From a virus (lineage: Duplodnaviria > Heunggongvirae > Uroviricota > Caudoviricetes), in the IMG/VR virus record IMGVR_UViG_2537561687_000016, positions 1 through 10,844 of that record: DNA of 10,844 bases. One strand, 5' to 3'. Every line of letters starts with the position of its first letter. Within the stretch, counting starts at the first letter, position 1. Below are positions 1 through 7,249 of the stretch, piece by piece. Both the position numbers and the translations under genes were made by a program. Under the pieces are notes generated by a model that did no database searches, was not told where the DNA came from, and was given only the letters and a program-made list of their open reading frames with translations.

Positions 1-1170
1 ATGCCCCTAAATGATATGCAGATTCGCTGTGCTAAACCTGAAGCTAAAGCCTATACACTTGGGGATGGGCAAGGGCTGTCTTTACTTGTAGAGCCAAATG
101 GAAGTAAAAGCTGGCGATTTCGTTATCGCTATGCAGGTAAACCTAAAATGATCTCGCTTGGTGTCTATCCAACGATCACACTTGCTGAAGCTCGTTCCCG
201 TCGTGATGAGGCCCGAAAAATAGTGGCTGAGGGAAAAAACCCTAGTGAGGTACGAAAAGAGCAAAAACTAGCATTAAGAATTCAATCTGAGAATGCATTC
301 GAAAAGATTGCTAGAGAGTGGCATCGGATGAAGTCTTTAAAATGGTCTGCTGGGTACGCCTCGGATATTATGGAGGCGTTCCAGAACGATATTTTTCCGT
401 ATGTGGGAACTAGGCCTGTAGGAGAAATTAAACCGCTAGAGCTGTTAAATGTACTGCGTAAAATTGAGAAGCGTGGCGCATTGGAGAAAATGCGAAAAGT
501 ACGGCAACGTTGCTCAGAAGTTTTTCGATATGCCATTGCCACCGGAAGAGCAGAGTTTAATCCTGCCGCAGATCTGTCCAGTGCTCTCGAAGTACATAAA
601 TCAAATCATTTTCCATTCTTAAAATCAGATGAGATACCTGATTTTCTGCGTGCTTTAGAGCGCTATACAGGGAGTCGACTTGTCGTTATTGCTACGAAGT
701 TATTGATGATCACGGGAGTAAGAACCATCGAATTACGTACCGCATTATGGTCAGAATTTGATTTGGATAACGCTATTTGGGAAATTCCCGCTGAAAGAAT
801 GAAAATGCGCAGGTCACATCTTGTGCCATTGTCGACCCAAGCGTTAGATTTACTTAATGAACTCAAGATAATGACAGGGAACTATCGTTATGTTTTTCCG
901 GGGCGGAATGATCCGAAAAAGCCTATGAGTGAGGCGAGTATCAACCAAGTCATCAAACGTATCGGTTATAACGGGAGAGTGACGGGGCATGGATTTAGGC
1001 ACACATTGTCTACAATATTGCATGAAGAATGTTACGATTCTGCATGGATAGAGATGCAATTAGCTCATGTAGATAGAAATAATATACGTGGTACTTATAA
1101 TCATGCTCAATATTTAGAAAAAAGAATAAGCATGATGCAATGGTATTCAAATAAATTACTTGGTGAATAA
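1..1170 (+). CDS. int: P4-family tyrosine integrase (site-specific recombinase), 389 aa
   Basis: ORF starts at window position 1 (ATG). N-terminal MPLNDMQIRCAKP...GDGQGLSLLVEPNGSKSWRFRY resembles the P4/CP4-57 integrase arm-binding region. C-terminal catalytic region HGFRHT...LAHVDRNNIRGTYNHAQYLEKR carries the conserved R/H and the RGTY tyrosine. May be preceded by an att site/tRNA outside the window. Confidence 0.9.
   Translation: MPLNDMQIRCAKPEAKAYTLGDGQGLSLLVEPNGSKSWRFRYRYAGKPKMISLGVYPTITLAEARSRRDEARKIVAEGKNPSEVRKEQKLALRIQSENAFEKIAREWHRMKSLKWSAGYASDIMEAFQNDIFPYVGTRPVGEIKPLELLNVLRKIEKRGALEKMRKVRQRCSEVFRYAIATGRAEFNPAADLSSALEVHKSNHFPFLKSDEIPDFLRALERYTGSRLVVIATKLLMITGVRTIELRTALWSEFDLDNAIWEIPAERMKMRRSHLVPLSTQALDLLNELKIMTGNYRYVFPGRNDPKKPMSEASINQVIKRIGYNGRVTGHGFRHTLSTILHEECYDSAWIEMQLAHVDRNNIRGTYNHAQYLEKRISMMQWYSNKLLGE
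1074..1101 (+). promoter_or_regulatory. Candidate sigma70-type promoter embedded in the 3' end of int, possibly driving the cargo gene
   Basis: TATAAT at 1096-1101 with a weak -35-like TAGAAA at 1074-1079 (16-nt spacer). There is no intergenic space between int and the cargo (2 nt), so any dedicated promoter must lie inside int. Pattern match only. Confidence 0.25.
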
Positions 1171-1172
1171 TT

Positions 1173-3920
1173 ATGAATGTTGACATTAAACATTTTGAAC
1201 ACATTATTAAAGCTGCAGATGACAACTCACTAGCAATTTTTGTCGGAGCTGGGGTATCTAAATCAGCGGAGAATGATACAACCAAATTACCTACATGGTC
1301 AGATTTGATCGAAGAGTTAAAAATAGATCTTGGTATAACCTATGAATTAGATTACCTGAAAGTGGCACAATTATATTTTTTAGAATTTGGTCCTCATACT
1401 TACTATAAGAAAATCAAAAAGTATTTCCCTGACAATCTTGTTCCATCTAAAATACATGAATTAATTTTTGGGATAAATCCGCATTATGTAATTACTACAA
1501 ATTGGGATTGTCTGCTTGAGACTTCGATGTTAGAAAATGCATATATTTATGACTTGGTTTGCAGTGATCAGGATCTAATGAAATCAAGCCTTGATAAAAA
1601 ACTTATTAAAATGCATGGTGATTTCAAGAATCATAATATAGTTTTCAAAGAAGATGATTACATCAATTATGAATTTAATTTTCCATTGTTGTCGAATTAT
1701 ATAAAGAGCATATTATCAACTCACACAATAATTTTTATTGGCTATTCTTATAGTGATATTGATATTAAGCAAATAATAAAATGGGCTCAAAATCATACAT
1801 CGATACGCCCTCCAATGTATTTGTTGGTGTATGAAAATGACGTTGTGCAAAGTCGGTACTTAGCAAGTCATGGTGTGCAGACTCTCATGGCAGGAGATTA
1901 CAATGGTGGTGGGTATTCTGATTATCGAACTAACAAATTATATGGTTTTCTGAAGTCAGTAAAAGATAAAAAAGTTAGTAGTAGTGTTGATAAAAGTGTA
2001 ATTAATATTGTTTTTGCAAAGTTAGCAGAGCTTGGAACATTAAATGCAATATTAGCCGATCAGATTACTAGTTGTTTAGGTGAATGTTATATAGTTTATC
2101 GTGAGGTTGAAAATCGTCAGGTTGCATTATTAAAGTTCTATAGGAATGAAGCAACTCAGTTACAAAATGCAGAGCTCAGAGAAATTTATGCTAAATTTAA
2201 AAGAATTATAAAGACTAGCGATGATACAGGAGAGCATAGAAACTTACTTGGACCAATATTTGATATATTACAAAAAGCAGATATTGCTGGTGTAATCTGC
2301 GACGATGAAGACAAAGAAGCTGTTTTGACTCGTGATATGGCAACAACTCCTGTGAGAAAAAAAGCAGTTGAGGTTTTTAGGTTTGATTATAATAATAAAT
2401 TTGATTTTAGTAAAAAAAATAAATCAATTATGAATTTAAGCTTCGATAAAACAGATCCTTATCTATTTTATCAGCAATGTGATTTTGAAATGGCTTATCA
2501 TGCGGTTGATATTATAATTAAGCATGAGTTGAAGCATAAAAACTATGCCTCATTACTTATATCCCTTTTAAACCATAATATGATTTTACATGTTTTAAAA
2601 AATAGTTTTTTTCACAGGCGAGATAATTTCAGCGATTCAGAATCTTATGATATTAATGAGAGGTTTGACAACTTTCCAAAAAACGTGAAGAGATCACTAT
2701 CTACTTTGTTAGATATTGTTAATGTTGATTATATGTTCAAGTTTATACATTCTGTAGATAAGATACTAACAAAAAATAAAGATAGAGAAGATAAGAAGAC
2801 TTTTTTTTACTTGGATGCTGAAGAGTATAAAACTGATTTTGTTCATAAAAATATACTTTACTTCATAAAAGAAAATGGTTGTCTTGTTGATAACTATTCT
2901 GAGTTTAAATATGCTATTAATAAGATATTTGAGATAAAGGCTACAAAGCAAAAATCACAGGTAAATAATGATTCGATATTGTTTTCATTAGAGGAATTAT
3001 ACTCTGCAATTAAGTATTTAGAAAGTAATAGCCTTAAGGAAAAATTCAAATATAAAAAGAGAAATAAATATCTGAAGTTAGAATTAGATAGTGAAAGTGC
3101 AGAATGGTTGTTGAATCATGCTTTCAAGGAGTTGAGTCAGTTTTATAGAGAGAAAAAAGGAGTAGGTAATTATCATTTGGAGTCATTTAAAAATGCACTT
3201 TATCTTTTAGCCTTTTCTGATGAAAGCCATAATGATAAGGAATTGATTTATAGAGAGTTAATTGGCTTGGTTAGTGGTGATTACAATCAACTCGATTTTA
3301 TTGATTGCATTACTGAATATGTGACAATCTGTTTTAATAATAAAGGGAAGATAGATTTAGAGTTTATAAGAGGTTTGATGAATGGTTTGATTGAAAATTA
3401 TTCGTCATCAACAATTAAACAGAGACGCTACTTCAATAATATATTGAACTCTGCACGTAATATTTTCATCATTGCTAATGAGTTAGGTTTATCATTTGAT
3501 AATCATGTCTTATTGAAGCAATTATTATCGTCGGTAAATGATTGCGAATCTATCGAAAAAATTAGAACTGTAGAAACCATTATTTACGAACTTTTTATTG
3601 TTGGGGATGAACTGACTAAGAAAATGATAAAGGAGTTTATTAGTTTACTTGATATAGAACAATTTGGACACGATAAAAAAATCAAGTTTAAACTTTTTTT
3701 ATTGGCTGCTAGCATAATTGAAAAAGATGATCGTATAGCTAATGATACTCTTACTATGATTAAAAATTTATCCAAGAATAAATTTAGTTCGGAATTGTAC
3801 TCAATGAGAAATACACTCGAATTTTTAGTTAATAATAAAAAGATGCAGGAATTTTCTGAATCTTATGACGAAATAAAAAAAGTGATCTCACTTTTAGAAA
3901 ATAAATATCTAAGTCATTAA
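1173..3920 (+). CDS. SIR2-like (SIR2_2-type) domain protein, 915 aa, with large C-terminal domain of unknown function; candidate single-gene anti-phage defence protein (DSR-like)
   Basis: Complete ORF, ATG 1173 to TAA 3918-3920. N-terminal approx 230 aa show SIR2-like hallmarks: Rossmann FVGAGVSKS (res 23-31), TWSDL, ITTNWD with Asn110 (nt 1500-1502), KMHGD with His148 (nt 1614-1616), FIGYSYSDID (res 188-197). No Walker A or other catalytic motif seen in the remaining ~650 aa. Strongly AT-rich versus the flanking backbone. Confidence 0.75.
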   Translation: MNVDIKHFEHIIKAADDNSLAIFVGAGVSKSAENDTTKLPTWSDLIEELKIDLGITYELDYLKVAQLYFLEFGPHTYYKKIKKYFPDNLVPSKIHELIFGINPHYVITTNWDCLLETSMLENAYIYDLVCSDQDLMKSSLDKKLIKMHGDFKNHNIVFKEDDYINYEFNFPLLSNYIKSILSTHTIIFIGYSYSDIDIKQIIKWAQNHTSIRPPMYLLVYENDVVQSRYLASHGVQTLMAGDYNGGGYSDYRTNKLYGFLKSVKDKKVSSSVDKSVINIVFAKLAELGTLNAILADQITSCLGECYIVYREVENRQVALLKFYRNEATQLQNAELREIYAKFKRIIKTSDDTGEHRNLLGPIFDILQKADIAGVICDDEDKEAVLTRDMATTPVRKKAVEVFRFDYNNKFDFSKKNKSIMNLSFDKTDPYLFYQQCDFEMAYHAVDIIIKHELKHKNYASLLISLLNHNMILHVLKNSFFHRRDNFSDSESYDINERFDNFPKNVKRSLSTLLDIVNVDYMFKFIHSVDKILTKNKDREDKKTFFYLDAEEYKTDFVHKNILYFIKENGCLVDNYSEFKYAINKIFEIKATKQKSQVNNDSILFSLEELYSAIKYLESNSLKEKFKYKKRNKYLKLELDSESAEWLLNHAFKELSQFYREKKGVGNYHLESFKNALYLLAFSDESHNDKELIYRELIGLVSGDYNQLDFIDCITEYVTICFNNKGKIDLEFIRGLMNGLIENYSSSTIKQRRYFNNILNSARNIFIIANELGLSFDNHVLLKQLLSSVNDCESIEKIRTVETIIYELFIVGDELTKKMIKEFISLLDIEQFGHDKKIKFKLFLLAASIIEKDDRIANDTLTMIKNLSKNKFSSELYSMRNTLEFLVNNKKMQEFSESYDEIKKVISLLENKYLSH

Positions 3921-3984
3921 AGTAACTTTTATGATTTTTTATTATCGATAATTGCAGCAATTATAAGATGAGCGTTAGTGCGCA

Positions 3985-4003
3985 GTGCTTTCCCCGCCTC
4001 GCC
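3985..4003. other. cos site core (P2/P4-type 19-nt cohesive end sequence)
   Basis: GTGCTTTCCCCGCCTCGCC at 3985-4003 is the exact reverse complement of GGCGAGGCGGGGAAAGCAC, which I recall as the 19-nt cohesive end of P2/P4. Immediately followed by a GC-rich stem (4003-4008 pairing with 4017-4022) and TTTT. Confidence 0.7.
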
Positions 4004-4104
4004 CGCCCGCTTTGCGGGGCGGTTTTAATGCAGTTGCACTGACACGCTCAGGCCGTGCCGGGCGTGGCCTGGTATACAGAAAATGAGGCAGGAAAACGCA
4101 TGCA

Positions 4105-4137
4105 AAGCCATGCACCTTATCGATGCATGGCTTTTTT
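4105..4137 (+). terminator. Rho-independent terminator-like hairpin (plus-strand orientation)
   Basis: AAGCCATGCA (4105-4114) pairs with TGCATGGCTT (4124-4133), 9-nt loop, followed by a T-run (4132-4137). Lies between cos and the 3' end of psu, positioned to stop read-through from the int/cargo side. Confidence 0.5.
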
Positions 4138-4167
4138 CAGTAAAAACGGGCGGATTTTCGGGGAATT

Positions 4168-4740
4168 TTACACAGACTGACGTGATGCCAGTTGCGCACT
4201 TTTACGCGAAAAAATCATGTTCTGCGCAGGAGTGAATTTTTCACGGCTGTCATCCACCGAAGCCGCGTCAGGCCTGAATCCGATGGTCGTTAAAATGTCG
4301 CTATCCTGTGCGGAATAATTAATTTTTTCACCCTTCGCAAGCCAGGACAGAAGGGCTTCACGCAGGGCATCTGTGGCACGCTGTATGGCACAGTTTCGGG
4401 CAATGGCCGTCAGCTCACTGTAGCCCATCAGCTCCGGTGCCAGTGCCGCCGCCAGTGCTGTGCCGTGCTGCTGCATAAAATCATTCAGCCGGTCGCGGAT
4501 GCTGATGTGCTGAACGGCTTCATGCGAACGAATATAACGACCGGCGGCCTGATTCACCTGCCATTTTCTGACTTCGATAATATTGCGTAATTCGTCCAGG
4601 CGACTGACGTTTCTGCCTTCTCCTGACAGAAGCCGCAGATATTCCTGTTCGGCCGCTGCCAGCTCATTTTTGCGTTGCAGCCATGCTGCTTTGTTATTCT
4701 GACAGGTGTCAAAGGCCTGCTGTAAGGCTGTGCTTTCCAT
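4168..4740 (-). CDS. psu: Psu-like polarity suppression / capsid decoration protein, 190 aa
   Basis: 190-aa ORF, same length as P4 Psu; N-terminus MESTALQQAFDTCQNNKAAWLQRKNELAAAEQEY matches my recollection of P4 Psu. Last gene of the minus-strand sid-delta-psu operon. Confidence 0.85.
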   Translation of the reverse strand: MESTALQQAFDTCQNNKAAWLQRKNELAAAEQEYLRLLSGEGRNVSRLDELRNIIEVRKWQVNQAAGRYIRSHEAVQHISIRDRLNDFMQQHGTALAAALAPELMGYSELTAIARNCAIQRATDALREALLSWLAKGEKINYSAQDSDILTTIGFRPDAASVDDSREKFTPAQNMIFSRKSAQLASRQSV

Positions 4741-4813: not shown

Positions 4814-5314
4814 TCATTCCAGACGCAGCGAATATGATTGTGTTTTTAACCGTACTGGCGGCAGTTCCTGTTTTTCATGCAGGCGTTCTGCCAGTTCGTC
4901 CGGCGTGACCGGGCGGACAATGAAGCGGTTGATGGTCTGAAGCGTTTTAAACACCAGACCACAGCCCGGATCCGTGCACACATAAAAACGCTCGGTGACT
5001 TCCTGAGACAGACGCCGCGATGTTCTTGACAGTGCAAGGCCTTTACATCTCCGACAACAATATCCGGTAACAAGCATTCTTTTCGGGCGTTTCATACTGC
5101 CGGAGGCTGACGTCAGTGAATCGCGGTATCTCTGTTTGCCTGAAATGTATTCCATTCCTGAATCTTTACTGTCAGAGAAAAAGCTTTCACTCGCTTCAAA
5201 TGTCGCAGAGCAATAAATATTCCGGCACTGTGCAATCATTATCTTGGTGCCATCGTCCATGAAATGTGCGCGACGGGTGTGAGCAACATGTCCACACGAC
5301 GGGCAGTAAATCAT
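4814..5314 (-). CDS. delta: Delta-like late transcriptional activator (tandem Ogr-type zinc fingers), 166 aa
   Basis: 166 aa, same length as P4 Delta. Two Cys-rich Ogr-like modules (MIYCPSCGH...C...C and CRRC...CTDPGCG). Start codon overlaps the sid stop (ATGA at 5311-5314). Confidence 0.85.
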   Translation of the reverse strand: MIYCPSCGHVAHTRRAHFMDDGTKIMIAQCRNIYCSATFEASESFFSDSKDSGMEYISGKQRYRDSLTSASGSMKRPKRMLVTGYCCRRCKGLALSRTSRRLSQEVTERFYVCTDPGCGLVFKTLQTINRFIVRPVTPDELAERLHEKQELPPVRLKTQSYSLRLE

Positions 5315-6044
5315 GACAGCAGTCCTCTGGCCTTAAGCTCTGCTCCCTGCTGGTCTATTTTGTCCTGCCACACCTTGCGCTGTGCCGGTGTGCCTGCCAC
5401 CTCATAATCCATGTGCGGGAGTGTTGCCGCTGACAGTCCGGTCAGCCGGAGAACCGGCTCGCCGGTGAGGCTGATTTGCATCTGTTTAATTTTCTGTTCC
5501 AGCGATGATTTCACCTGCTGCATGACAGCCTTTTCCGGTGCGACGTAGCCCTGATGGCCGGTGGTGTTGGCGAGCGGATTTTCCTGTACCAGAATGCTCA
5601 GATGCATTGCCCGGACAAGCGCCTCACAGGTTTCATTCAGGGCGTGTTCCAGCTCATGCTCTGCATACAGACTCAGAAGGTGATGATGTGCCTTCCGGTA
5701 GGCGGTGGCCGTGCTGTCACACGCCCCTTTCAGGCGTTCCGTTCAAAATTCAGCACCACGGCCAGATTGTCATATTCCTGTACCAGCTCCCGGCGTGCCA
5801 CGCGCTCAATGTGGCGCTGTTTCAGCTCGTCGCTCAGGACACCACCGGCTGCACGAAAGGCCGTGCGCCAGTCGTCAGCGTCGTTTCCGTCGGCCTGCGC
5901 CAGCGCATTTTTTTCCTGCTCTGCCCGTTCAATGGCCGTGACGGTCTCATCCATCAGGCGGGCGTTCTCAAGATGGGCGGCTCTGGCCTTTTCCAGTTGT
6001 GCCAGTGCGGGTTGCAGATATTCAGGGATGGTGTTGTCAGACAT
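5311..6044 (-). pseudogene. sid: sid-like capsid size determination gene with an apparent 1-nt frameshift (two ORF fragments)
   Basis: N-terminal fragment (ATG at 6044-6042 with AGGAG RBS, to TGA at 5732-5730) begins MSDNTIPEYLQPALAQLEKARAAH. C-terminal fragment continues in another frame to TGA at 5313-5311. Total span 734 nt, one short of the 735 nt needed for a 244-aa Sid plus stop. Frame switch lies around 5725-5740. Confidence 0.6.
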
Positions 6045-6116
6045 TTTCCGGCTCCTCGTCACTTCAGGTTAAGAAAATTGTGACGTACACCGGACAACAA
6101 CACGACGCATTGCAGA

Positions 6117-6134
6117 TGTGCCAGCCCTGACACA
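6117..6134 (-). promoter_or_regulatory. TGT-N12-ACA dyad, candidate Delta/Ogr activator site of the leftward late promoter (P_sid-like)
   Basis: TGTGCCAGCCCTGACACA at 6117-6134. Centre is about 80 bp upstream of the sid ATG (6044), compatible with the roughly -55 position of Ogr/Delta sites at P2/P4 late promoters. Confidence 0.5.
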
Positions 6135-6213
6135 GGAGACTCATCCTCAGACCGGCAAGCCAGGAAAAGGTCGCAGGAAAAACCGGCTTACTGTTTGTTT
6201 TTTTATATTTTAC

Positions 6214-6317
6214 TGTTCACCTCTGTTCACCATAAGAAAAAAGATAAGTAATACAGTAAGTTAAAGGGTGAACAATCGCAGTAATGACTGTTCACCGTCT
6301 GTTCACCACTGTTCACC
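6214..6317. repeat. Iteron array: five direct copies and one inverted copy of TGTTCACC, candidate alpha-binding replication origin (P4 ori-like)
   Basis: Direct copies at 6214-6221, 6224-6231, 6289-6296, 6300-6307, 6310-6317 (spacing 10-11 bp); inverted copy GGTGAACA at 6267-6274. TGTTCACC is, as I recall, the type I iteron bound by P4 alpha at ori and crr. Array lies about 4.7 kb upstream of the projected alpha 3' end. Confidence 0.6.
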
Positions 6318-6420
6318 CGCTGATGGACTTTTTGTGCTGTTTACTACTGTTTGTTTTTATTAATTCGCCGTGAATGAATAAGAAGAAACGATTTGTATTT
6401 CACTATAAAAATTACGAATT

Positions 6421-6450
6421 GCTTTAAGTGGCTTTAAATGACTTTAAGTG
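6421..6450. repeat. Three tandem 10-bp repeats (GCTTTAAGTG / GCTTTAAATG / ACTTTAAGTG), candidate regulator binding sites
   Basis: Perfectly contiguous decamers with 1-2 mismatches, about 27 bp upstream of the rightward TGT-N12-ACA dyad. Function unknown. Confidence 0.4.
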
Positions 6451-6476
6451 GAGATGAACAAAAAACACACAGCCAT

Positions 6477-6494
6477 TGTAAGGCTGCCGGAACA
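6477..6494 (+). promoter_or_regulatory. TGT-N12-ACA dyad, candidate Delta/Ogr activator site of the rightward late promoter (P_LL-like) upstream of vis
   Basis: TGTAAGGCTGCCGGAACA at 6477-6494; centre about 110 bp upstream of the vis ATG (6597). Confidence 0.45.
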
Positions 6495-6596
6495 AATCCC
6501 CCCTGTTGCGTCTGCCAAAAATATTCACAAAATAAAGCGCTACCCGAAGCCGGACGGACTTATCCGGTGCTGTATGGACATTAACGAGGTAGCCCG

Positions 6597-6898: not shown

Positions 6899-6928
6899 TT
6901 GCCTTTTTCCGGCATTTGCGGATATAGT
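6899..6928 (+). promoter_or_regulatory. Candidate sigma70 promoter (P_LE-like) for the immunity/early operon
   Basis: TTGCCT (6899-6904), 18-nt spacer, TATAGT (6923-6928). A perfect 7-bp hairpin follows at 6935-6954 (GCTGCCG / CGGCAGC). Pattern match only. Confidence 0.35.
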
Positions 6929-7249
6929 TTTTCCGCTGCCGCAAAATCGGCAGCCGGGCGTGAGAACCCGAGTAAGTCAAAGGCGACATATGACGCGCCA
7001 TGCGTCTTTTTTTGTGTCGCAATCAACGCCACAGAGCGCCAGATTATGGTGTGGCGTGTGGTTTGCCGTGCAGGTATGATCCTGTTCGCAATCGCATGTT
7101 ATGCCACTGAGTCAATGGTAGCTCAGGCGGGGCAGCCTCCGGGCTGGCCGGTATCCTATGACGCCGGTATTCTCACCCCCGTCTGGGCTATCGCCATCGA
7201 GCGTGAGAACTCCGGCGATAGCGTTATTTGCTACTCAGGAGGCTGCCTT

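What the first reader, a model, noticed from the sequence alone, without database searches (positions are those of the whole stretch)
1239..1760. SIR2 catalytic core appears intact: predicted active-site Asn110 and His148
The motifs FVGAGVSKS, ITTNWD (Asn110, nt 1500-1502), KMHGD (His148, nt 1614-1616) and FIGYSYSD occur in the order and spacing expected for defence-type SIR2 domains, where the equivalent Asn and His are needed for NAD+ hydrolysis (ThsA, DSR2). This suggests an active NADase rather than a degenerate domain.
Basis: partly seen in the sequence, partly recalled or inferred. Interest (0 to 1): 0.6.

Follow-up and report, generated by a model that had tools for sequence, protein, structure and literature searches.

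The report
DSR2-type defence sirtuin in P4 satellite
The gene encodes a 915-residue anti-phage sirtuin of the DSR2 type with every known NAD-cleaving residue intact, carried as the single cargo gene of a P4-like phage satellite in E. coli; it is an untested member of a known kind of defence protein, not a new kind.

Summary
All four motifs, Asn110 (nt 1500-1502) and His148 (nt 1614-1616) lie in one ORF, 1173-3920 (+), 915 aa. Asn110 and His148 align with the catalytic N133 and H171 of Bacillus subtilis DSR2. Ser29, Trp42 and Asp112 align with three more DSR2 pocket residues (S51, W59, D135). These residues are invariant in about 118 homologues that share 33-60% identity.

Most likely it is a single-protein abortive-infection system. 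A phage protein would bind the C-terminal sensor and switch on NAD+ hydrolysis. NADase activity, oligomeric state and trigger are all inferred, not shown. Verdict: a new member of a known kind, of modest interest.

The parts
1173..3920 (+). Complete ORF of the DSR2-type defence sirtuin (915 aa plus stop), identical to WP_001552601.1 'SIR2 family protein'
   Evidence: ORF list. 100% identical in 5 complete E. coli chromosomes and annotated there. Full-length fold match to DSR2.
1173..2000 (+). SIR2 NADase domain (aa 1 to about 275; the C-terminal boundary is approximate)
1245..1259 (+). G25-A26-G27-V28-S29, the NAD-binding loop after strand beta1; Ser29 corresponds to DSR2 S51
   Evidence: G25, A26, G27 and S29 are invariant where aligned.
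1296..1298 (+). Trp42, equivalent to DSR2 W59, the aromatic residue that stacks on nicotinamide in the C pocket
   Evidence: Alignment. W59A impairs DSR2. W in 117 of 118 sequences, the other a gap.
1500..1508 (+). Asn110-Trp111-Asp112: Asn110 matches catalytic DSR2 N133 and ThsA N112; Asp112 matches C-pocket DSR2 D135
   Evidence: Invariant in 118 of 118 sequences.
1614..1616 (+). His148, equivalent to catalytic DSR2 H171 and ThsA H152
   Evidence: Aligned opposite Ala in the DSR2(H171A) chains.. Invariant in 118 of 118 sequences.
1647..1661 (+). K159-E160-D161-D162-Y163, an invariant motif; Asp161 matches DSR2 D188, a tetramer-interface residue; residues 159-164 have pLDDT below 50 in the monomer model
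1740..1748 (+). G190-Y191-S192, an invariant loop after strand E185-189 (within the FIGYSYSD motif)
2001..2732 (+). Middle (adaptor) domain, about aa 276-520: helices plus a beta hairpin at 305-322 (boundaries approximate)
2733..3917 (+). C-terminal alpha-solenoid (HEAT-like) domain, about aa 521-915, the presumed sensor (boundary approximate)
1..1170 (+). P4-type tyrosine integrase; its stop codon lies 2 nt before the sirtuin ATG, and its last ~170 nt are already AT-rich
   Evidence: Pfam Arm-DNA-bind_3, Phage_int_M and Phage_integrase. Composition. Sequence.
1074..1101 (+). Promoter-like hexamers TAGAAA-16-TATAAT inside the 3' end of int, about 70 nt upstream of the sirtuin ATG (weak evidence)
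   Evidence: The number of such sites does not exceed the shuffled expectation.
4003..4022 (+). Terminator-like GC hairpin followed by a T run, in the conserved P4 backbone between the cargo and psu
   Evidence: The same sequence appears in the cloned P4 hotspot flanks of Rousset et al..
4168..4740 (-). psu (polarity suppression protein), the right-hand border of the P4 hotspot
   Evidence: Pfam Psu E=1.3e-88. Annotation.

Best explanation
The ORF encodes a single-protein abortive-infection defence of the DSR2 (defence-associated sirtuin 2) type, carried as the only cargo gene in the int-psu hotspot of a P4-like satellite. Shown here by computation: an N-terminal SIR2 domain with a complete NAD+ pocket (Ser29, Trp42, Asn110, Asp112, His148); a middle domain and helical C-terminal domain that fold like those of DSR2; and strong purifying selection. 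Inferred from B. subtilis DSR2: the protein rests as an inactive oligomer, probably a tetramer with the SIR2 domains at its core. A phage protein made during infection binds the C-terminal sensor; in DSR2 this is the monomeric tail tube protein. The change is passed through the middle domain, and the SIR2 domain then hydrolyses NAD+ to ADP-ribose and nicotinamide. NAD+ depletion stops phage production at the cost of the infected cell. The trigger for this enterobacterial subfamily is unknown. It is probably not the satellite's own P2-like helper.
For: - **Catalytic residue mapping:** three methods agree on N110/N133, H148/H171, D112/D135, W42/W59 and S29/S51.
- **Conservation:** W42, N110, D112 and H148 are invariant wherever aligned in 118 sequences. 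dN/dS is 0.10 overall and 0.054 in SIR2.
- **Fixed architecture:** all 79 full-length cluster representatives that carry this MID-CTD also carry an N-terminal SIR2 domain. Proteins of about 1000 aa bridge towards BsDSR2.
- **Single gene in mobile or defence contexts:** the order int-SIR2-psu/ogr recurs in E. coli, Salmonella and Klebsiella, and int-SIR2-ogr (no psu called) in Yersinia. One metagenomic homologue lies next to a CBASS operon. There is no partner ORF in 3921-4167.
- **Hotspot cargo:** GC is 29% against 56% for the rest of the window. The accession is listed as P4 hotspot cargo in Rousset 2022 Table S1A.
- **Not a classical sirtuin:** only two Cys in aa 1-300 and no CxxC motif, so no zinc module.
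Against: - No experiment exists for this protein or its subfamily. No paper mentions the accession.
- The only P4 hotspot SIR2 protein that Rousset et al. cloned is a different family (25% identity in the SIR2 domain). It is listed among systems that were not validated.
- The middle and C-terminal region has no detectable sequence similarity to any solved structure, DSR2 included (no hit at E<=10). The sensor may therefore bind something else.
- The PADLOC Dsr2 model does not hit the protein.
- DSR2 tetramer residue Y71 falls in a gap. The allosteric loop1 (WKRGKY) is replaced by LENAYI. The adenine-stacking Y282 equivalent (Tyr251) is not conserved in the family.
- Residue positions in the pocket rest on alignments. 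I could not read model coordinates to measure distances.
Confidence: 0.75

Rival explanations
1. The SIR2 domain is a classical NAD+-dependent protein deacylase or ADP-ribosyltransferase that modifies a host or phage protein, rather than a bulk NAD+ hydrolase.
Confidence: 0.05
2. The protein works like Thoeris ThsA: it is switched on by a small signalling molecule made by a partner encoded elsewhere, not by direct binding of a phage protein.
For: The best PADLOC models are ThsA1 (E=1.2e-27). The SIR2 domain is structurally close to SeThsA.
Against: Those PADLOC models cover only the SIR2 part (aa 9-206). The rest of the protein folds like DSR2 MID-CTD, not a SLOG domain. No ThsB/TIR gene lies beside it in any of the contexts examined. 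The genuine BsDSR2 fragment also scores best against ThsA1 models, so that hit does not discriminate.
Confidence: 0.07
3. The gene serves the satellite's own life cycle rather than defence against unrelated phages. For example, it could control the helper phage P2 or stabilise the island by addiction.
For: It is tightly coupled to int (2-nt gap here, overlapping in homologues) and recurs in P4-like elements.
Against: The int-psu hotspot is a documented reservoir of anti-phage systems, and only one of the 18 tested P4-encoded systems restricted P2-like helper phages. One homologue lies next to CBASS with no satellite genes called beside it. The architecture matches a proven defence protein.
Confidence: 0.06
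4. The domain looks intact but the protein is a decaying remnant with no function.
For: It is rare (5 of 5426 complete E. coli genomes). The satellite in this window has a frameshifted sid-like gene.
Against: The 915-codon ORF is intact. dN/dS is 0.10. The key residues are invariant over a family that has diverged to 33% identity. Full-length homologues occur in several genera.
Confidence: 0.03

Closest known systems
DSR2 of Bacillus subtilis 29R (WP_029317421; PDB 8k98, 8wyb, 8wy8 and others)
   Different: Identity is about 16-17% overall and 28% in the SIR2 region. The MID-CTD is unrecognisable by sequence. The protein is 90 residues shorter. DSR2 Y71 and loop1 are not conserved. The host is a Gram-negative enterobacterium, and the gene sits in a P4 satellite hotspot. 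Trigger and inhibitor are unknown.
ThsA (Thoeris) SIR2 domain (B. cereus MSX-D12; S. equi 7uxt)
   Different: There is no SLOG signal-binding domain and no ThsB/TIR partner gene nearby. The C-terminal 640 residues are of DSR2 type.
KomC, the SIR2 NADase of the KomBC system (PDB 8zsf, 9xvc H146N)
   Different: KomC is a 264-aa stand-alone SIR2 protein, solved as a helical assembly and in a complex with KomB. The protein here carries its own MID-CTD.
Single-gene 'SIR2_2' cargo of the P4 int-psu hotspot (Rousset et al. 2022, Table S1A; 'Sir2-like, likely a NADase' cluster in the Domainator paper)
   Same: This exact accession (WP_001552601) is listed there as a one-gene hotspot arrangement, in the same position between int and psu.
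   Different: Those catalogues give only the Pfam label. The SIR2 protein they cloned (pFR88, E. coli M605) is another family (25% identity in SIR2) and was not among the validated systems. The DSR2-type architecture was not noted.

Membership tests
Defence-type SIR2 NADase domain (Pfam SIR2_2; ThsA/DSR2/KomC clade) | Significant match to PF13289 above the gathering score | tested here: met
   E=1.4e-22, 80.8 bits against a cut-off of 24.5
Defence-type SIR2 NADase domain (Pfam SIR2_2; ThsA/DSR2/KomC clade) | Catalytic Asn and His (DSR2 N133/H171; ThsA N112/H152) | tested here: met
   N110 and H148 align to them by three methods and are invariant in 118 sequences
Defence-type SIR2 NADase domain (Pfam SIR2_2; ThsA/DSR2/KomC clade) | C-pocket Asp and aromatic residue, plus the GAGxS loop Ser (DSR2 D135, W59, S51) | tested here: met
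   D112, W42 and S29, invariant where aligned. Functional data.
Defence-type SIR2 NADase domain (Pfam SIR2_2; ThsA/DSR2/KomC clade) | Adenine-stacking Tyr (DSR2 Y282; the Y282A mutant keeps about half the activity) | tested here: inconclusive
   Tyr251 aligns to it in this protein, but that column is mostly Ser in the family alignment and lies in a gapped loop
Defence-type SIR2 NADase domain (Pfam SIR2_2; ThsA/DSR2/KomC clade) | No zinc-ribbon module of the classical deacetylases | tested here: met
   Only Cys113 and Cys130 in aa 1-300 and no CxxC motif
Defence-type SIR2 NADase domain (Pfam SIR2_2; ThsA/DSR2/KomC clade) | Hydrolyses NAD+ to ADP-ribose and nicotinamide | not testable with these tools
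   Needs an enzyme assay
DSR2 (B. subtilis type) | SIR2 + MID + alpha-solenoid CTD in one chain, colinear with DSR2 | tested here: met
DSR2 (B. subtilis type) | Sequence homology of the MID-CTD to DSR2 | tested here: not met
   A MID-CTD-only profile finds no PDB sequence at E<=10. A link exists only through intermediate proteins of about 1000 aa.
DSR2 (B. subtilis type) | Recognised by the PADLOC Dsr2 model | tested here: not met
   No Dsr2 hit at E<=1. That model hits a genuine BsDSR2 fragment only at 2.4e-17, below the ThsA1 models, so it is a weak criterion.
DSR2 (B. subtilis type) | Stand-alone single-gene system | tested here: met
   No partner ORF. The same one-gene arrangement recurs in E. 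coli, Salmonella, Klebsiella and Yersinia.
DSR2 (B. subtilis type) | Head-to-head homotetramer required for activity (Y71, D188) | tested here: inconclusive
   The D188 equivalent, Asp161, is invariant in the 32-sequence family alignment and lies in a low-pLDDT loop. Y71 falls in a gap. Oligomeric state was not modelled.
DSR2 (B. subtilis type) | Activated by monomeric phage tail tube protein; inhibited by DSAD1 | not testable with these tools
   Needs co-expression or binding experiments
P4-like satellite hotspot cargo | Located between the P4 integrase and psu in a P4-like element | tested here: met
   int 1-1170, psu 4168-4740, ogr/delta, AlpA, DUF5375 and primase. C4 antisense RNA at 7111-7198. 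The accession is in Rousset Table S1A.
P4-like satellite hotspot cargo | Demonstrated anti-phage activity | not tested
   Not among the systems cloned by Rousset et al.. No paper cites the accession.

The most novel reading that the evidence does not exclude
This enterobacterial, satellite-borne DSR2 branch may have kept the NADase and the overall scaffold while evolving a C-terminal sensor with no detectable sequence similarity to DSR2. That sensor could recognise a different phage component from the siphovirus tail tube protein sensed by B. subtilis DSR2. It could also spare the tail tube of the P2 helper that the satellite needs. If so, it would be a natural case of sensor retargeting on a fixed effector, tuned to a satellite-helper relationship.
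Probability: 0.3. Interest if true: 0.5.

Novelty: new member of a known kind. Interest (0 to 1): 0.3.

Why it matters
It gives a precise, testable annotation to a gene that databases call only 'SIR2 family protein' and that PADLOC's Dsr2 model does not hit. The gene is a full DSR2-type NAD+-depleting defence protein carried by P4 satellites across Enterobacteriaceae. All mechanistic work on DSR2 so far uses one Bacillus protein and one phage family. An E. coli member would allow the same questions (trigger, inhibitor, tetramer activation) to be asked with the coliphage collection. It would also allow a test of how a satellite's abortive-infection gene avoids firing on its own helper. The catalytic-site finding on its own is ordinary.

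Tried and rejected
- **NCBIfam:** no family matched.
- **PADLOC:** only ThsA1 and candidate PDC-S25/S65 models hit, all over the SIR2 part and with no Dsr2 hit. A control scan of a reconstructed BsDSR2 fragment shows the Dsr2 model is weak even for true DSR2, so this absence says little.
- **MID-CTD-only profile against PDB sequences:** nothing at E<=10. The one-stretch full-length alignment was therefore probably carried by the SIR2 part. The C-terminal relationship rests on fold and on intermediate sequences.
- **Alternative effectors:** I asked whether this sensor is fused to other effector domains. All 79 full-length representatives have SIR2.
- **Phage genomes:** only two weak hits, covering only the SIR2 region.
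- **Prior experimental test:** the accession is in no paper's text. The SIR2 clone pFR88 of Rousset et al. is a different protein.
- **Promoter scan:** a candidate lies inside int, but the number of sites is no higher than in shuffled sequence.
- **dN/dS against the 60%-identical homologue:** synonymous sites are saturated, so it is unusable.
- **Pocket distances:** I could not read the model's coordinates, so placement of residues in the pocket rests on alignments and secondary-structure positions only.
Full report
**1. The observation**

The window holds one long ORF at 1173-3920 (+) of 915 codons. Its translation contains four motifs:

| Motif | Residues | Nucleotides |
|---|---|---|
| FVGAGVSKS | 23-31 | 1239-1265 |
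| ITTNWD | 107-112 | 1491-1508 |
| KMHGD | 146-150 | 1608-1622 |
| FIGYSYSD | 188-195 | 1734-1757 |

The match to a SIR2 domain is not a chance pattern. Pfam SIR2_2 (PF13289) scores 80.8 bits against a cut-off of 24.5, E=1.4e-22. The best solved relatives are the DSR2 chains at E=2.7e-32.

**2. Is the catalytic core intact?**

The HMMER alignment to B. subtilis DSR2 covers residues 8-293 of the query and 30-325 of DSR2. It places VITTNWD on VITTNYD and KMHGD on KVHGD. In the deposited H171A mutant chains the residue opposite His148 is Ala.

I rebuilt the DSR2 30-325 fragment from that alignment. Its numbering reproduces the published residues T52, W59, W60, N133, D135, H171, T248 and Y282. BLASTP and MAFFT give the same equivalences:

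| DSR2 residue | Role in DSR2 | Residue here |
|---|---|---|
| S51 | listed among conserved pocket residues | Ser29 |
| W59 | stacks on nicotinamide in the C pocket | Trp42 |
| N133 | catalytic | Asn110 |
| D135 | C pocket | Asp112 |
| H171 | catalytic | His148 |

The experimental basis comes from the literature:
- N133A and H171A abolish DSR2 defence and lower its NADase activity.
- D135A and W59A impair activation in vitro and in vivo.
- S51, N133, D135 and H171 are listed as the conserved residues of the modelled NAD+ pocket.
- In ThsA, N112A and H152A abolish NAD+ cleavage.

In the AlphaFold model each motif lies in the loop directly after a beta strand (E20-24, E105-108, E143-146, E185-189), as in a sirtuin Rossmann fold.

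Conservation points the same way. In a 32-sequence alignment (33-60% identity to the query) G25, A26, G27, S29, W42, T108-D112, K146-D150 and G190-Y193 are invariant. In 118 non-identical sequences N110, D112 and H148 are present in all, and W42 in every sequence aligned at that position. Against a 97%-identical Salmonella allele, dN/dS is 0.10 overall and 0.054 in the SIR2 part.

Two caveats apply. Activity itself is untested. In the DSR2 paradigm the enzyme is silent until triggered.

Some DSR2 features are not conserved:
- The adenine-stacking Y282 aligns to Tyr251 here, but that column varies in the family.
- Tetramer residue Y71 falls in a gap.
- The allosteric loop1 (W143-Y148, WKRGKY) is LENAYI here.

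The other tetramer residue, D188, corresponds to invariant Asp161 in an invariant VFKEDDY stretch. That stretch includes the lowest-confidence segment of the SIR2 part of the monomer model (residues 159-164, pLDDT below 50). This would fit a loop that becomes ordered only in an oligomer, but that is inference.

**3. What the whole protein is**

A family-profile search of PDB sequences aligns DSR2 in one stretch from profile position 6 to 833 (E=2.8e-50). A profile of the C-terminal 615 residues alone finds nothing at E<=10, so sequence does not establish homology beyond the SIR2 domain. Fold does.

- The AlphaFold2 model built from the 32-sequence alignment has mean pLDDT 81.6 and pTM 0.67.
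- Its 44 best Foldseek hits in the PDB are all full-length DSR2 chains, with TM 0.57-0.68 over roughly 985-1050 columns at 15-18% identity. Chains that contain only the SIR2 domain give a query-normalised TM of 0.26.

A full HMMER scan of 1.84 billion cluster representatives with the MID-CTD profile found 218 clusters at E<=0.001. All 79 full-length ones carry an N-terminal SIR2 domain, so this sensor is not shared with other effectors. At the weak end of the list are proteins of about 1000 aa whose SIR2 domain is as close to BsDSR2 (about 37%) as to this protein (35-42%). They form a bridge between the two groups.

Within the family the SIR2 part averages 60% identity to the query, and the MID and CTD about 30%. 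A conserved effector joined to a fast-diverging sensor is the pattern expected of such defence proteins.

**4. Genomic setting**

The gene lies in a P4-like satellite. The neighbours are:
- a P4-type integrase at 1-1170, upstream;
- psu at 4168-4740 (-) and ogr/delta at 4814-5314 (-), downstream;
- an AlpA-type regulator, DUF5375 and the alpha primase-helicase that runs to the window end;
- the C4 immunity RNA at 7111-7198 and isrK at 6935-7012.

GC is 29% in the gene against 56% in the rest of the window. The drop begins near nt 1000, inside the 3' end of int, and ends near nt 3965. The ATG follows the int stop after 2 nt. No other ORF of note lies between the gene and psu.

The gene is 100% identical in five complete E. 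coli chromosomes out of 5426. The satellite backbone occurs in 1011 of them, so this is rare cargo in a common vehicle. Homologues at 39-60% identity occupy the same position after int in Salmonella, Klebsiella and Yersinia, and in an unassigned metagenomic contig. A more distant one lies beside a CBASS operon.

The accession WP_001552601 appears in Table S1A of Rousset et al. 2022 as a one-gene 'SIR2_2' arrangement of the P4 hotspot. The SIR2 protein those authors cloned (pFR88, from E. coli M605) shares only 25% identity in the SIR2 domain and is listed among the tested but not validated systems. No paper in the library mentions the accession.

**5. Most likely mechanism**

- **Shown by computation:** an intact NAD+ pocket, the DSR2 architecture, purifying selection, and a single-gene arrangement in a defence hotspot.
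- **Inferred from DSR2**: a resting tetramer; binding of a phage-made protein to the CTD; relay through the MID; NAD+ hydrolysis and abortive infection.
- **Trigger:** unknown. In DSR2 it is the monomeric siphovirus tail tube protein.
- **Helper sparing:** only one of the 18 tested P4-borne systems restricted P2-like helper phages. I therefore expect the helper's tube not to trigger it. This is a guess.

I put 0.75 on the overall DSR2-type reading, higher on an activatable NADase, and much lower on any specific trigger.

**6. Rivals**

Four alternatives were considered; none is favoured (details in the rival section):
- a classical deacylase or ADP-ribosyltransferase;
- a ThsA-like enzyme gated by a small-molecule signal;
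- a satellite life-cycle function;
- a decaying remnant.

**7. Novelty and verdict**

This is a new, experimentally untouched member (a divergent enterobacterial branch) of a known kind, the DSR2 defence sirtuins. It sits in a known kind of location, the P4 hotspot. What this stage adds is the full-length DSR2 architecture, the extra pocket residues, the family and its contexts, and the fact that standard defence-annotation models do not label it. Interest is 0.3.

Noticed in passing
window 5311-6062 (-), difference at about 5739: The sid-like gene downstream of ogr/delta is split into two ORFs (5311-5607 and 5730-6062). The cause is a 1-nt deletion relative to E. coli strain 120899, where it is one 244-aa gene. 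This is either a real pseudogene in this satellite or a sequencing error.
   Followed up: partly
window about 1000-1172: The GC drop of the cargo begins inside the last ~170 nt of int, and the sirtuin ATG follows the int stop after 2 nt. In Salmonella and Klebsiella homologues, and in a 60%-identical metagenomic one, the two genes overlap by 4-17 nt. The exchanged hotspot module seems to include the 3' end of int, and the cargo may be transcribed with int or from a promoter inside it (candidate at 1074-1101).
   Followed up: partly
window 6922-7198 (+): Rfam finds the P4 immunity elements: C4 antisense RNA at 7111-7198 (75 bits), its a1/b1 target at 6922-6974, and isrK at 6935-7012.
   Followed up: no
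window 6000-6500: This stretch holds 39 of the 92 differences from strain 120899, and several small indels lie at 6369-6452. It is the most divergent part of an otherwise 99.2%-identical satellite backbone.
   Followed up: no
protein aa 157-163 (window 1641-1661): VFKEDDY is invariant in the family, yet it overlaps the lowest-confidence loop of the SIR2 part of the AlphaFold monomer model (159-164, pLDDT below 50). It contains the equivalent of DSR2 tetramer residue D188.
   Followed up: partly
PADLOC library: The PADLOC 'Dsr2' model (1222 positions) matches a genuine B. subtilis DSR2 fragment only at E=2.4e-17, below the ThsA1 models, and misses this protein entirely. DSR2-type proteins of this branch are likely to go unlabelled or be read as orphan ThsA.
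   Followed up: partly
L010:6001-12819: A 35%-identical metagenomic homologue (P0115) lies next to a CBASS operon (SMODS cyclase, E2-CBASS, Sa_NUDIX) rather than in a P4 satellite.
   Followed up: no
L008 and L009: In Klebsiella quasipneumoniae the homologue P0113 lies with a P4 cII-like gene, an IS element and an HNH/ScoMcrA-type gene. This looks like a rearranged or composite island.
   Followed up: no
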